Shown piece by piece: positions 37,401 to 43,400 of a stretch of DNA of 64,000 nt; position 1 is the first letter of the stretch, and the number at the start of each line of letters is the position of its first letter. The translations under genes were made by a program, and so were the position numbers. Below the pieces are notes generated by a model that was not told the DNA's origin, ran no database searches, and saw only the letters and a program-made list of their open reading frames with translations. Location of the stretch: contig OX597819.1 of NCBI GenBank assembly GCA_951406725.2, positions 90,334,001 to 90,398,000 on the forward strand, given 5' to 3'. Source of the DNA: Octopus vulgaris (taxonomy: Eukaryota).

Positions 37401-40400
37401 CTTGTGGGCAATAAAGAAATAAGAAACCCATCATATGTATTTGTGTTTTTGTGCCATTTTGTCTTGACATTGCATGTCAGTTATAAGTGAATGTTACTAT
37501 CACATAAGCCACGTTGTTTATTTCCAATCTTCCAAAGAAATATGTCAGGTCATAGGGAAATATTATCTTACTTGGAAACAAGTGAAGGTTGGCAACAGGA
37601 AGGGTATCCAGCTGTAGAAAATCTGCATCACATCAACAAATTCTGTCTGATCCATGCAAACATGGAAAAATGGACGTTAAAATGATGATGATGTCAGTGA
37701 CAACAATTATTCTTGTTGTTATATTCTTGTATTTGATGGAGATCATTGGAAGGCTCTGGTAGCCTGATATTCTTTGAACATGAGTACTCAACTAACTAAC
37801 AGTTCACCTCGCTATCATAAATATAAAGAATTCTGAGAGGAGAATGATTAGCGATAATGACAACTGCTTTTTTCTTTATTGTTCCAGGGAAAATATTAGT
37901 CTCTAAGCTGCTCAAAAAAACAAAACAGATCTAAATAACACTCCTGCTGATAGATTCTAGAGATTCATAAAATAATTAAACTTGTGGGTTTGTGTAAATG
38001 TATTTATATATTTGTGTGTGTGAAGAAAATCTTCATGAATAATACTGATGATGAGAGCAATACTGATGGTGACAATGGTTGTCACCTGACTGGCACTAGT
38101 CAGGTCTTCTGAAACATTAAAAGTCCGATAGCAGTAATTATGTAAATAATCAAGATGATTAATATGATAATAATTGTTATTTAGCTCAAAGCCAATTTGG
38201 ATTTAGCAGACTTATGACCAAAGCCATTCTGACCAGGACCAGGTCATCTTTTATTTTTTCAAACTTACATTATCCAAACATTATCCAGTGAGTCATTTTT
38301 TTAAACATGGTAAGGTGTACCTTTAAGAATTGAGAATTGTTGTCTATTTCTTACAAGTCAAACAACCATGTAGATGATCCCTGATTGGCTTGTGACAAAA
38401 GAAATAGTTTAAATGAGCAAGGAGATGCTGAAACATTATATATGAAATATCTCTGACAAAATATGTATATTTTTATCTTTTTCAGGACACAGATTCACTG
38501 TACATTTGCAATCGACTTCACAGCATCAAATGGTAATCCAACAAGCCCCAGTTCATTACATTATATCAGCCCTTACAATCTTAACCCCTATGCAACATCT
38601 CTTCATGCAGTGGGCAACATCATCCAGGATTATGACTCGTAAGTACTTCTTGCTTGCCTGTTCTAACCAATGGTAAGATAGGATAAAAATCAGTAATCCA
38701 AGGAGAATAATGATGGTCTGTATTGACAACAATTAGTCTATAGGATGGGTTATAGAGGAGTTTGATAAGTTTAATTGCTGTAAAGAATGAATGGTTTAAA
38801 ATGTTGGGCTTTGTCTCTTCAGAGAGTGAGGAAGAAATAGAAAATAGTAATGTTCCTTGGGTTGTCTCTTGCTCCTCTTAATCCTGAGTCAGTGCTGTTG
38901 CTATATATTCAGATATGTTGAACTACATCTAGAGAAATGCCACTCAACTGACTGGCATAAAATCACTCACAGACATACTCCAGCCTCTGAACTACAGGTA
39001 CACTGTCTTCTCTCTCTACCTTTTCTATCACTGCTATAATGACTTTTGTATTCAGAATTGGCTGTCTTGTGTGAGGAGGTGCTGAAAAGTTTCTGGTTTT
39101 TGGTAAAAGAAAATACAGGAGGGTCAGTTAATTATGATTTTATTCAACATATTCCCCTCTCAGATTCACACACTTATTGCAGTGGTCCTTCAGTTTTTTT
39201 AAGCCCTGTAAAAGAACTCAGAAGGTTGTGCCTCCAATCTGGCTTTTCACGATACCCTTAAATGGTAAAAAATAATTTCTAGTAGGTCTGTGACTGAATA
39301 GAGGTGAGCTACCAAGGGAACCTCTACTACTCATATTCATATTGAATATTTATTACACTAATTTCACCAAGTTAGTCTATGTCCTAGTTTATTGAAGCAT
39401 CTAAAATACTTATGGCTGCTCCAAATGCCATCATGGGAAATGGAAAAGTGTGTTGTATTAAACCGTAATGTACATAGTTTTAACTGCTATATAATTGTTT
39501 TGTTTTAAATTTTTATACCTATATTCCATATGTTTAGAATTATCATTTTTCTTTCTTTTCTACTTTCAGAGATAAGTTATTTCCAGCATTGGGATTTGGT
39601 GCCCGACTTCCTCCAACTGGAATTGTATCGCATGAATTTCCTCTGGTTTGTCTACATTTCCTCTCCATTTTTATTGATTTCTCCTTTTTAATATCTTTTG
39701 GGATATATATGTTAAGGCTGTTTATAGAGGTTTACATATATCAATTTGTAACAATGTAATTGGAAGAAGGAATGGTTAATCTCATAAAATTTTTTGAAGA
39801 TGAAAAATTATGATGGAGATTTTTTTTGACACACACACACACCCCTCTCTTTTCATAAAATTGTTTTTCAATATATATATGAAATGAAATAATATTTTCT
39901 GCTTGTTGGATGTATAACAAAAACAAACAAAGATTTCTTACACATTTAAACTCTGGTTTTATTCAAAATCAGTTGAGAATGAATGTCTAGTGCATATTTC
40001 ATCCACTTCTGAAGAATAAAATCTAAACCAAACCTTGTGGATGTTGAACCAAAATATACAGTATTTGTAATCTCTGAGTAAGTCACTTCATAATTTAATG
40101 GCCATTTTCCATAATGGCATGGGTTTGATAGTTTGACAGGACCTGGTGAGTCACAGATGTTAATTGAATGCCAGTGTTAGCTTTAACATAGTTTCAATGG
40201 CTGGATGTCCTTCCTAAGGTCAACTACTTTACAATGTATACTTAGTGCTTTTTTTTCTGTCTGTGTCACTGGCATTAGTGAGGTCATCTACTAACTTGCA
40301 AGACAGAAAAATATATGCTGTTGAATGCAGCTTCTGATAACTTTTCTTTCTTTTTTTTTTTTACAGTTTGTCCCTTATTACAGTTTAACCTCTCAGCACC

Positions 40401-43400
40401 TGGAGTAAAGTCACATTTCTCTCCCAAATACTCCCCTACTCAGTTATGGGGGGGGGATTTTCCCCATTTTTCCTTGTTCTTTTTCTGTCTTGCAAGTTAG
40501 TAGAACAAGGAAAAATGGGGAAAATCCCCCCCCCCCCATAACTGAGTAGGGGAGTATTTGGGAGAGAAATGTGACTTTACTCCAGGTGCTGAGAGGTTAA
40601 ACTGTAATAAGGGACAACCATAGATAGGTGTCTTGCTACATATGGGCCAGCCAACAAGGGAGTCTCTACATAATCATTCAGTCTGCTAGAATCCCCTCAA
40701 ATCATACCCAACCATCATGGGAAATAAAAAGTCACATCAGATAATGTAATCCTAAAAACCTCAGAAAAGAGGGGATGGGATGAAAAAAGAAATTTCAGAG
40801 TGAACACATTTCACTTGAGCAAAACTTCAATTTACCTGATTTAATTAGCCAAGAACAACTTGCCATAAAGTAGCCTTCACCTGAAACAGATTTAGCAGGA
40901 AAGACTCTATCAATCAGAGCATATGATACTATGATATTATAAACAGAACAAAACAAAATATCCACTATATGTTAACCACTACCTTTTTTTATTTTTTGGA
41001 TTTTTCAGAAAATTTTTGGCAAATTTGTGTTCTATGCACAGGAATTCATACGATTATGAAAAATCAATTTTTGTGTGTGTGTGTGTGTGAATTAAGGGTA
41101 ATTCAGCTGTTGTTTTTAGCACATCTCACGACCACTTGATACCTTCCTTGTTTCACTCTGGCATATATTAATGTTTTTCAATATTTTCCTCCCAACAAAT
41201 ACATGTAATGGAATGATGATGGACCCAAGGGATTTAACCCAAAAATTCATTGTCCATAGTTTAAACTTTGATTTTTTTTTTTAAATCAAAAAAGAATGGA
41301 ACTTTTAAGATTTAGATGGAGTGGTTAAAATTTTTTTTTTATTTCATAATTATATGAATTCTTGTGTGTAGCACACAAAATTGCAAAAATTTTCTGAAAA
41401 TTCCAAAAACTAAAAAGAAGTTACAAGGGGTAATATGGGGTGATTAAACTAGAATTCTACTGACATTTCTACTGGTCTTTTAAACATGATTATAATTAAA
41501 AAGTATAATAAATTCACACAAGTAAGCACAAAACTGTGAAAGGATCACCTGTACAAAATAACCACTTTTTTGCTAATTCCAGTTTTCTGGAAGCCAAATA
41601 AGAGGTCCGGTACTGTACTTAGCTTGCTGAATGATGTTTGAGTAATTCTTGGAAGTTTACTTTTGTTTATAATCTTTTTCTTTTTCTTTGTTCTTTCAAG
41701 AATGGTACAATTGAAAACCCTTATTGTGAAGGTATCCAAGGTGTGATAGATGCTTACCATCATACTCTTCATTCCGTACAACTTTATGGCCCAACTAATT
41801 TCGCTCCATGTATCAACTATGTCGCTCGGTAAGTAAATTATCTGAGAGTTTTTATTAGAAGTAGTTAGGAATAGGTTTTCTGTACAACTAGAATATTAAT
41901 TAGCTGATTATTCACAGTTCTTAATTATTGTTGTTGTTTAACCCCCTGGTCAGTCCTGATTGAACCAGATCTATAATCCAACTCATTCCAGCTATGCCCA
42001 TCTCAATTTTTTCTGGCTAAATGTACCCTAAATGACATTATCTAATGTTTATATGCTTTTGTTAGACAGTAAGGTCTGACTTGAGGGAGTCTTTGCTGCT
42101 CTTTCTACTGGGTTGAACAATCACATAGAGGCTCTCTCTTTGATTCAAGGTTTCTTTTTCGCCTAACTTCTTCACTGGCTCCCAGTTTCCTAAAACTACA
42201 ATTCTTAGTATAGTATATGTATATGACATGTGTGTGTGTGTGTACATAAATATACAAGTCATGATGTGTATTTTCCATTCATGAAAATATGTCCAGCCAT
42301 AACCATAGGGAAATATTACGTTACTTGGGAAGTTTTCTCCTTCATGGCTTTTGATCTGAGCTTTTATTTATTATTTTTTTCACAATAGCTGTGAGAACAG
42401 CAAGGCAGATGTGACACTTCCAGATGTTTTGTCTTTTGACAAAGAATTCATGCCATACTATACCATTCCTTTAAGCCGTTTCTGATGATTAGAAGGGGTT
42501 TTTTTTTTAGTCCTAACTTCTGAATGTGTGTGTGCGTGTGTGATGGAATCTACTGTCAAAAGATGATATATGAGTGTTCAGTTTTTGCTGATCAAATGTA
42601 TAGCTCACTCCCTCCATCAAGTTGACGTTGCCCGAATAGGTGCGCAGTGTACCACACATCAGATATCGAAGTGGTCACAGAGCAACGTTAAATGAAGTAT
42701 TTTGCTCAACTATCTAGTCCAGGAATTGAAACCACGATCTCACAATCGTGAGTGTAACATCGTAACAACTAGGCCATACGCCCTTGTCTTTTATATATGT
42801 AGTAACTTGAAAATAAGTGTCTTGCTCAAGAACACAACTCACAACCCGGTTCGAGAATCGAACTCACAACCTCACTATTGTAAGCTCGATCTTCTAATCA
42901 CTGATTCAAATGTGCCTTCGCATAACACACACACACAAAACACACAATGAGGGGAAATAACTCTCTTAAGCTTAATTTGTCACATGACAGATGAAGGGGA
43001 CATTACAAGGACAAATTACAACGGCAGCACATGACGTAATCTTTCAGTGTTAGGCTCGCACTCATCTTCAGCATCATTATTTGATGTTTATGTTAAATGC
43101 TGGCATGGGTTGGATGGTTTGACAAAACCCAACAGGGCTGAAGACCACGTCATGCTCCAGTGCCTACTTTGGCATATTTCTGTGGCTGGATTCCCTTCCT
43201 AACAACAGCCACTTTGCAGCATGTACAAAGTGCTTTTTTTTTTTGCTTTTTTTTTTATATCATTACGAATGAAGTTGCCATGCAGCCCACAAGACCAAGG
43301 TTCCCTTCAACTGAATGAGGCTATAGTAGAGAAGCAAGCAGTTTTATATTGTGGAATGAGGGATTAAAGTGAGAAAGAAGTGCCCAGAATAGTTTTCTCA

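What the first reader, a model, noticed from the sequence alone, without database searches (positions are those of the whole stretch)
40340..40617. Frame-preserving cryptic exon with a single TAA buried in a near-perfect ~113-bp hairpin
Seen: the phase-0 intron between copine exons 39570-39645 and 41701-41828 has a very strong acceptor (ctgataac + T-rich tract + ACAG ending 40366) and a GTTAGT donor at 40496. The 129-nt segment 40367-40495 is 43 codons in the copine frame, with exactly one stop (TAA 40406-40408). Nearly all of it pairs with 40502-40617. Established: coleoid cephalopods show extensive ADAR A-to-I editing of dsRNA, and poison exons trigger NMD. Inference: this may be a structure- or editing-gated poison exon; editing both As would recode UAA to Trp. 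It could equally be a chance by-product of a repair event, and the frame depends on the G9 run being correct.
Basis: partly seen in the sequence, partly recalled or inferred. Interest (0 to 1): 0.7.

Follow-up and report, generated by a model that had tools for sequence, protein, structure and literature searches.

The report
Repair scar mimics an octopus exon
A 191-base patch was inserted into an old repeat in an intron of the octopus copine-8 gene, likely by one DNA copying or repair accident; it made a long hairpin and a strong-looking false exon, but the transcripts seen skip that exon, so it is likely a harmless scar and not an editing-controlled switch.

Summary
In detail: a 129-nt in-frame segment with one TAA, a 113-bp stem, and an acceptor that outscores all 13 real copine-8 acceptors. 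But one insertion explains all of it. Removing 40312-40502 restores an old dispersed repeat (junction crossed in 10 of 12 other copies). The insert is 36 nt copied from another chromosome, a T-run, a 9-nt local echo that supplies the AG, and a 137-nt backwards copy of the target site, with microhomologies of up to 3 nt: a complex templated insertion of '3-1-4-2' template-switch geometry. It is real (insert junctions in 4 of 4 DNA contig sets, three organism labels) and young (no substitution in 173 paired sites). A second, missed 25-bp inverted pair is predicted to mask the donor as it is transcribed. Four of four presumed-RNA contig sets join 39645^41701 directly; none lists inclusion, though contigs drop rare isoforms. 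Frame and stop are unremarkable (joint chance about 0.1-0.2), UAA needs two edits, and the frame hangs on a variable G-run. Editing is untested. The scan has noted similar scars elsewhere, also in this genome. Verdict: ordinary scar; a leaky poison exon is not excluded.

The parts
39570..39645 (+). Upstream copine-8 exon (vWA/copine domain), donor GTTTGT
   Evidence: tblastn and exon chain; spliced to 41701 in 4 of 4 presumed-RNA contig sets
40230..40640 (.). Old dispersed repeat copy (about 65-80% identical to other copies; family not assigned, ends approximate) that received the insertion between 40311 and 40503
   Evidence: empty junction crossed by 10 of 12 other copies
40287..40311 (+). 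Left flank, 25 nt; pairs perfectly with 40480-40504 and is predicted to mask the cryptic donor in the nascent RNA
   Evidence: I5; duplex -37.9 kcal/mol, donor unpaired probability 0.0 at transcript ends 40504-40510
40311..40346 (+). 36-nt patch identical to a site on another chromosome (G000:C4 near 81,147,200, minus strand); holds the branch-point-like CTGATAAC (40334-40341)
   Evidence: only other match of a 25-mer in the genome at up to 2 mismatches, control 0; exact extent
40347..40360 (+). TTTC plus T-run = polypyrimidine tract; likely slipped copy of the (TTTC)n microsatellite that follows the donor site
   Evidence: slippage is inference
40361..40369 (+). 9-nt echo of 40378-40386; supplies the acceptor AG (40365-40366)
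   Evidence: expected by chance 0.004 within 150 nt either side on both strands
40368..40504 (-). 137-nt inverted copy of the empty target site (113 nt of right flank, across the junction, 25 nt of left flank)
   Evidence: its reverse complement equals 40287-40311 joined to 40503-40617 except for the C-run
40367..40495 (+). Pseudoexon, 43 codons, TAA at 40406-40408, G9 at 40448-40456
   Evidence: not seen included
40496..40501 (+). Cryptic donor GTTAGT in the hairpin loop
   Evidence: score 5.5, within the range of real donors
40502..40617 (+). Right arm of the long stem = original repeat sequence (template of the inverted copy)
41701..41828 (+). Downstream copine-8 exon

Best explanation
This is a 191-base insertion into an old intronic repeat of octopus copine-8, likely made in one recent template-switching event of DNA replication or break repair, and the false exon that it created is likely skipped because the same event buried it in RNA structure. 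Shown: the insert's pieces and their sources, the empty site, presence in several animals, direct splicing across it. Inferred order of events: synthesis stopped after the A-run at 40311, copied 36 nt from a site on another chromosome, slipped in that site's TTTC microsatellite to give a T-run, returned to the opposite strand of the intact target region, copied TTACAGTTT, slipped back to 40617, copied 137 nt backwards across the break point, and rejoined the original strand at an AGA microhomology. Because the inverted piece crosses the break point intact, the template was an unbroken duplex (sister, homologue or other fork arm), not a snap-back of a broken end. Predicted consequence: the 25-bp pair hides the donor as it leaves the polymerase, then the 113-bp stem buries the exon body, so exon definition fails although the acceptor is very strong. 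The stem is likely an ADAR substrate like other intronic repeat duplexes, with no selected role.
For: Empty junction 40311|40503 crossed by 10 of 12 other repeat copies tested. Patch has one other match in 2.8 Gb, 36 of 36 identical. Microhomologies: A at entry, AGA at return; TT at the slip to 40617 is my reading. Two inverted repeats around an inverted spacer is the '3-1-4-2' type (PMC5453318, passages); multi-template germline insertions are common in people (33 of 103 and 26 of 99 calls 'complex', PMC8421209 section 10 part 1). Youth: 0 substitutions in 173 paired sites, 95% upper bound 1.7%; no substitution rows over 576 nt in 4 DNA sets. Direct joint 39645^41701 in 4 of 4 presumed-RNA contig sets from 4 studies, depth 60, 176, 314, 105. 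Masking; stable structure lowers Alu exonization (PMC2639721, passages). Such hairpins are common here (14 of 58 stretches).
Against: The acceptor is exceptionally strong by my model (best of 2899 intronic AGs; 1 of 64,054 in the background), its pyrimidine tract stays about 90% unpaired in all folds, and it is the only decoy pair in 50.5 kb of copine introns that is in frame with at most one stop at the third threshold tried (none at the two stricter donor thresholds, which exclude it). The insertion was in 4 of 4 DNA sets with three organism labels and no empty allele was listed, so it may be fixed; drift suffices but selection is not excluded. No outgroup lacking it was seen; the empty site is inferred from paralogous repeats. 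RNA evidence is contigs only, RNA status is the tool's guess, tissue unknown, the tool skipped 40337-40367 and dropped 2 joints at repeats in X14. Folding is an equilibrium model, not kinetics. Direction chromosome 4 to chromosome 6 is inferred.
Confidence: 0.74

Rival explanations
1. Leaky, structure-gated poison exon: the strong new acceptor and the loop donor are used in a fraction of transcripts when the stems are opened (by editing, helicases or temperature); the TAA, 87 nt before the next junction and ahead of five junctions, sends these to NMD and trims copine-8 output.
For: Acceptor outscores all real ones and stays accessible; donor within the real range; after full folding the donor is half unpaired. 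NMD would hide the isoform from contigs. Cephalopod introns and repeats are edited (PMC9068888, passages, squid data).
Against: No inclusion joint in 4 of 4 contig sets that do join across it. Young and explained by one mutation. A poison exon does not need to keep frame, so the in-frame length adds nothing.
Confidence: 0.13
2. NARF-like editing-gated coding exon: ADAR edits both As of UAA to give Trp and a copine-8 with 43 extra residues.
For: Precedent in human NARF, where a UAG in an Alu exon is edited to UGG at over 97% (PMC1852406, passages). The stop lies inside a perfect duplex; frame is kept at G9 and also at G12.
Against: UAA needs two edits and each single edit leaves a stop (genetic code). 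The exon has 24 As in a perfect duplex, so editing would likely scramble the peptide. No insertion at this site in 21 of 21 homologues shown. Frame is lost at G8, 10, 11, 13, and one organism-B contig has a run of 11 (the arm cannot be told). No protein holds the Trp-read peptide (weak by the tool's own note).
Confidence: 0.03
3. The hairpin matters as double-stranded RNA, not as an exon: it is cut into small RNAs against the host repeat family, or hyper-edited and retained.
For: 113-bp perfect stem in a transcribed intron. In one presumed-RNA set an intron contig starts exactly at 40618, the foot of the stem, where DNA contigs start at 40588: a weak hint that the duplex forms in RNA.
Against: One contig only; other family copies are just 65-80% identical, poor targets; all 25 Rfam matches lie far below gathering scores; comparable hairpins are common.
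Confidence: 0.07
4. Retrotransposon-driven insertion (LINE-type target-primed reverse transcription of a foreign RNA) in place of DNA template switching.
For: The insert holds a T/A run and sits after an A-run; it contains sequence from a distant site.
Against: No target-site duplication of 5 nt or more, the A-run lies inside the insert and continues the donor's microsatellite, and 137 nt are a reverse copy of the target itself (class 1 features from PMC5110952, passages).
Confidence: 0.02
5. Assembly or fold-back artefact of long reads.
For: Perfect palindromes with homopolymer-length mismatch are a known artefact pattern (own knowledge).
Against: Contigs of 4 DNA runs from 4 samples and 3 studies carry insert junctions without mismatch; all four break at 40588 as a collapsed inverted repeat would. 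X1 may be the source animal; X2, X5, X6 are other samples.
Confidence: 0.01

Closest known systems
Four-point template-switch event, type 3-1-4-2 (Loytynoja and Goldman 2017, PMC5453318; passages seen)
   Same: A backwards copy that overlaps both the exit and the return point, leaving two inverted repeats (here 25 and 113 bp) and needing an inter-strand template.
   Different: Extra jumps before the inverted copy, one to another chromosome; the type made up 1% of their human-chimp events.
Complex MMB-TI (microhomology-mediated templated insertions, MMBIR-like; Osia et al. 2021, PMC8421209; abstract and section 10 part 1 seen)
   Same: Germline insertion built from several templates with short microhomologies.
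   Different: Their search targets nearby templates; here one template is on another chromosome. The enzyme (Pol theta, Pol zeta or other) cannot be told from sequence.
Class 2 templated sequence insertion polymorphisms (PMC5110952; passages seen)
   Same: Patch from a distant locus, no target-site duplication, no poly(A) tail, microhomology.
   Different: Most of this insert is a local inverted copy; no empty allele was seen, so it may be fixed and not polymorphic.
NARF exon 8, editing-dependent Alu exon (Lev-Maor et al. 2007, PMC1852406; passages seen)
   Same: Repeat-derived intronic exon inside a duplex, in frame, with an in-frame stop that A-to-I editing could turn to Trp.
   Different: In NARF editing creates the AG, the stop is UAG (one edit), and inclusion and editing were measured; here the AG is genomic and outside the stem, the stop is UAA (two edits), and neither inclusion nor editing has been seen.

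Membership tests
3-1-4-2 template switch / complex templated insertion | Inserted fragment is a reverse copy of the local pre-insertion sequence overlapping both switch points | tested here: met
3-1-4-2 template switch / complex templated insertion | Two inverted repeats result | tested here: met
   (I1+I4 and I5); definition
3-1-4-2 template switch / complex templated insertion | Short microhomologies at junctions | tested here: met
   A at entry, AGA at return; 1-3 nt can arise by chance, and the T-run junctions are ambiguous
3-1-4-2 template switch / complex templated insertion | Empty (ancestral) allele seen at the orthologous locus | tested here: inconclusive
3-1-4-2 template switch / complex templated insertion | Dependence on a given polymerase or pathway | not testable with these tools
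   needs genetics
Class 1 TSIP / LINE-mediated insertion | Target-site duplication of 5 bp or more and terminal poly(A) | tested here: not met
   features
Poison exon | Inclusion places a premature stop well upstream of later junctions | tested here: met
   TAA 87 nt before the exon's 3' end, five junctions downstream; the 50-55 nt rule is recalled from mammals
Poison exon | Exon is actually included in transcripts | tested here: inconclusive
   Only the skipping joint in 4 of 4 contig sets; contigs drop rare isoforms
Poison exon | Conserved across lineages | tested here: not met
   Young: 0 substitutions in 173 paired sites; shared only by near-identical organisms A, B, C. A distant species was not available, so this rests on the age bound
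Poison exon | Isoform rises on NMD inhibition | not testable with these tools
   no such data served
NARF-type editing-dependent exon | Editing creates a splice site | tested here: not met
   AG and GT are genomic
NARF-type editing-dependent exon | Stop codon removed by efficient editing | tested here: inconclusive
   No A-to-G row in 40368-40617, but no long RNA contig was laid in the stem and no raw reads were available
Known structured RNA family (miRNA precursor) | Rfam match at gathering score | tested here: not met
   best 53.6 bits against 95; 0 of 25 matches reach the cut-off

The most novel reading that the evidence does not exclude
A self-silencing mutation turned switch: one repair event created the strongest acceptor in the gene together with two competing helices (25-bp over the donor, 113-bp over the exon) that hold it off, and octopus ADAR activity loosens them in neurons so that the exon is included and sets copine-8 dose through NMD, or is read through after double editing: a new editing-controlled exon caught at birth.
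Probability: 0.07. Interest if true: 0.65.

Novelty: new member of a known kind. Interest (0 to 1): 0.2.

Why it matters
As it stands it is a clean, fully traceable example of a rare mutation type (3-1-4-2 switch plus a distant patch) and a possible lineage marker within a group of close octopus species. It also shows how one accident can yield branch point, pyrimidine tract, AG, donor and a duplex at once, so such coincidences should not be read as design. If inclusion turned out to depend on editing, it would be a natural test of whether the high ADAR activity of cephalopods speeds the birth of regulated exons.

Tried and rejected
No RNA holder on record was listed by the run search; the four 'RNA?' sets are the tool's guess, supported only by their spliced contigs. 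In them the bin 40310-40390 has depth 0.44, 0, 0, 0, and the 0.44 is accounted for by an intron contig ending at 40316; lack of cover proves nothing, and hyper-edited reads would not assemble. My idea that word shares of 0.14-0.18 reflected exon inclusion was wrong: they come from other repeat copies and low-depth intron pieces. Protein search with the Trp-read peptide found no candidate (weak). Three clusters (5 Octopus copine-8 proteins) hold no isoform with the insert; NMD isoforms would not be listed. Rfam: generic hairpin hits only. Recursive splicing rejected: the acceptor is followed by TT, not GT. The donor region on chromosome 4 shows no long clean reading frame, only microsatellite frames and a transposase-like remnant (my recognition, not searched) about 9 kb away. 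A Drosha-cut reading of a contig start at 40607 (X14, depth 2.3) was dropped as noise. Solved structures (BONZAI 1, RGLG) confirm the vWA family only; I did not model the insertion. Literature: 'copine + octopus + splicing' gave 0 papers, 'cephalopod + poison exon + nonsense-mediated decay' 3, none on this by title and abstract start; the library lacks most subscription papers, and supplementary editing-site tables were not examined and could bear on editing here.
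Full report
Observation. The sequence is as described. The arms differ only in a G9 against a C12 run and fold at -222.3 kcal/mol, z -28. The gene is Octopus copine-8: the downstream exon is 98-100% identical to Octopus copine-8 records, and a 13-exon chain in the window reproduces such a protein.

What is and is not unusual. With a model trained on the gene's 13 acceptors and 12 donors, the cryptic acceptor scores 22.9, above all real ones (2.9-18.1, leave-one-out) and best of 2899 intronic AGs; the donor scores 5.5, inside the real range and matched by 160 of 2738 intronic GTs. 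In 580 kb of other genome (58 stretches: 38 at round coordinates, 20 beside the window) 1 of 64,054 AGs reaches 22.8. The model is small and favours T-runs. One stop in 43 codons has chance 0.33, at most one 0.53, and frame 1 in 3. Any stop can become UGG by A-to-I editing, and UAA is the hardest, needing two edits (genetic code). Long hairpins are common: 14 of 58 stretches hold an exact non-simple inverted match of at least 40 nt.

Anatomy. A second perfect inverted pair, 40287-40311 with 40480-40504, shows that 40368-40504 is a reverse copy of the left flank joined directly to the right flank. That empty junction is the ancestral state: both flanks belong to an old dispersed repeat, and with 40312-40502 removed the alignment runs through the junction in 10 of 12 other copies tested, while the sequence as it stands breaks into pieces. 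The first part of the insert, 40311-40346, matches one other site in the genome, on another chromosome, 36 of 36, followed there by a TTTC microsatellite. Then come a T-run and a 9-nt echo of 40378-40386 (chance 0.004) that supplies the AG. Entry has 1 nt and return 3 nt of microhomology. So branch-point-like motif, pyrimidine tract, AG, exon body, donor and stem are all products of one insertion.

Real and young. Contigs of four DNA runs (two of organism A, one each of B and C; 4 samples, 3 studies) all run from the left flank into the insert without mismatch, three also across the loop into the right arm, and none lists an empty-site joint. By the tool's strict rule of 31 letters each side, X6 bridges the entry junction and X1 the return junction; the other crossings have 25-27 letters on the short side, partly because the tool skips the T-run. 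X1 may be the source animal. No substitution is listed over 576 nt; one organism-B contig has a C-run one shorter, and it cannot be assigned to an arm. Zero substitutions in 173 paired sites bound the divergence since the event at 1.7%; word shares put B and C about 0.3-0.4% from A (rough). The perfect stem thus reflects youth and needs no selection.

Splicing. Four presumed-RNA contig sets from four studies each carry the direct joint 39645^41701 (depth 60, 176, 314, 105); no joint to 40367 or from 40495 is listed, and no A-to-G difference in the stem. Limits: contigs drop rare variants, NMD and mixed editing would hide inclusion, tissue and most genotypes are unknown, the T-run was skipped and two joints at repeats were dropped in X14. 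One hint points to a duplex in RNA: in X8 an intron contig starts exactly at 40618, the foot of the stem, where DNA contigs start at 40588; a reverse-transcriptase stop or an edit branch could do this, but it is one contig.

Mechanism. Origin (inferred): multi-step template switching, with a distant patch and a local inverted copy from an intact duplex. This is the 3-1-4-2 geometry, which creates two inverted repeats and made up 1% of human-chimp events (PMC5453318, passages), and resembles complex MMB-TI germline insertions (PMC8421209, abstract and section 10 part 1) and class 2 templated insertions (PMC5110952, passages). Silencing (predicted): in RNA ending at 40504-40510 the donor is fully paired in the 25-bp helix; once the right arm is made the exon is 91% paired and the donor half paired, while the pyrimidine tract stays open. 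Stable structure over an exon or its donor lowers exonization of Alus (PMC2639721, passages). Editing of the stem is plausible, since squid introns and repeats are edited (PMC9068888, passages), but is not shown here.

The editing-gated reading. The precedent is NARF exon 8, where editing creates the AG and turns UAG to UGG at over 97% (PMC1852406, passages). Here the AG is genomic, the stop needs two edits, 24 As lie in a perfect duplex, the frame survives only at G9 or G12, and none of 21 homologues shown (of 24 held; 3 short ones lack the motif) has an insertion at this site. I give a leaky poison exon 0.13 and a Trp read-through isoform 0.03.

Earlier scan notes (unchecked AI notes) describe similar inverted-copy scars in this and other genomes; none fits this place. 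One gave me the MMB-TI paper. My reading was fixed before the first look-up.

Verdict. Observation confirmed; best read as a young complex templated insertion with a structurally masked pseudoexon. New member of a known kind, interest 0.2. Raw RNA reads decide the remaining doubt.

Noticed in passing
window 41701-41702: The presumed-RNA contig of organism B (X14) reads AG for AA, changing the first codon of the exon from Asn to Ser; the Octopus sinensis protein P0003 has the same Ser where the other 20 homologues shown have Asn. A species difference or an edit; untested.
   Followed up: no
L039 4626-4730 (G000:C4:105004626-105004730): Hairpin with a second 43-nt inverted pair beside it inside a repeat, the same two-inverted-repeat geometry as this finding.
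   Followed up: partly
L031 5859-5971 (G000:C2:90005859-90005971): Hairpin whose two halves match other loci (L063, L064) at 100% in separate pieces, likely a very recent fold-back in a young repeat.
   Followed up: partly
window 40618 (run X8): An intron contig begins exactly at the foot of the stem, 30 nt later than in DNA runs; the other three RNA-like sets start low-depth contigs at 40607, 40632 and 40649.
   Followed up: partly
window 40980-41061 and 41342-41423: An older inverted pair (73-89% complementary) in the same intron, likely ends of a MITE-like repeat; and a 193-nt pair at 20047-20239 / 20782-20974, 82%.
   Followed up: no
window 39646 and 46113: Two real copine-8 donors read GTTTGT, so a T at +3 is tolerated in this gene.
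   Followed up: no
L023 398-1054, minus strand: 218-codon frame that looks like a Tc1/mariner transposase remnant (recognised from memory, not searched), about 9 kb from the donor site.
   Followed up: no
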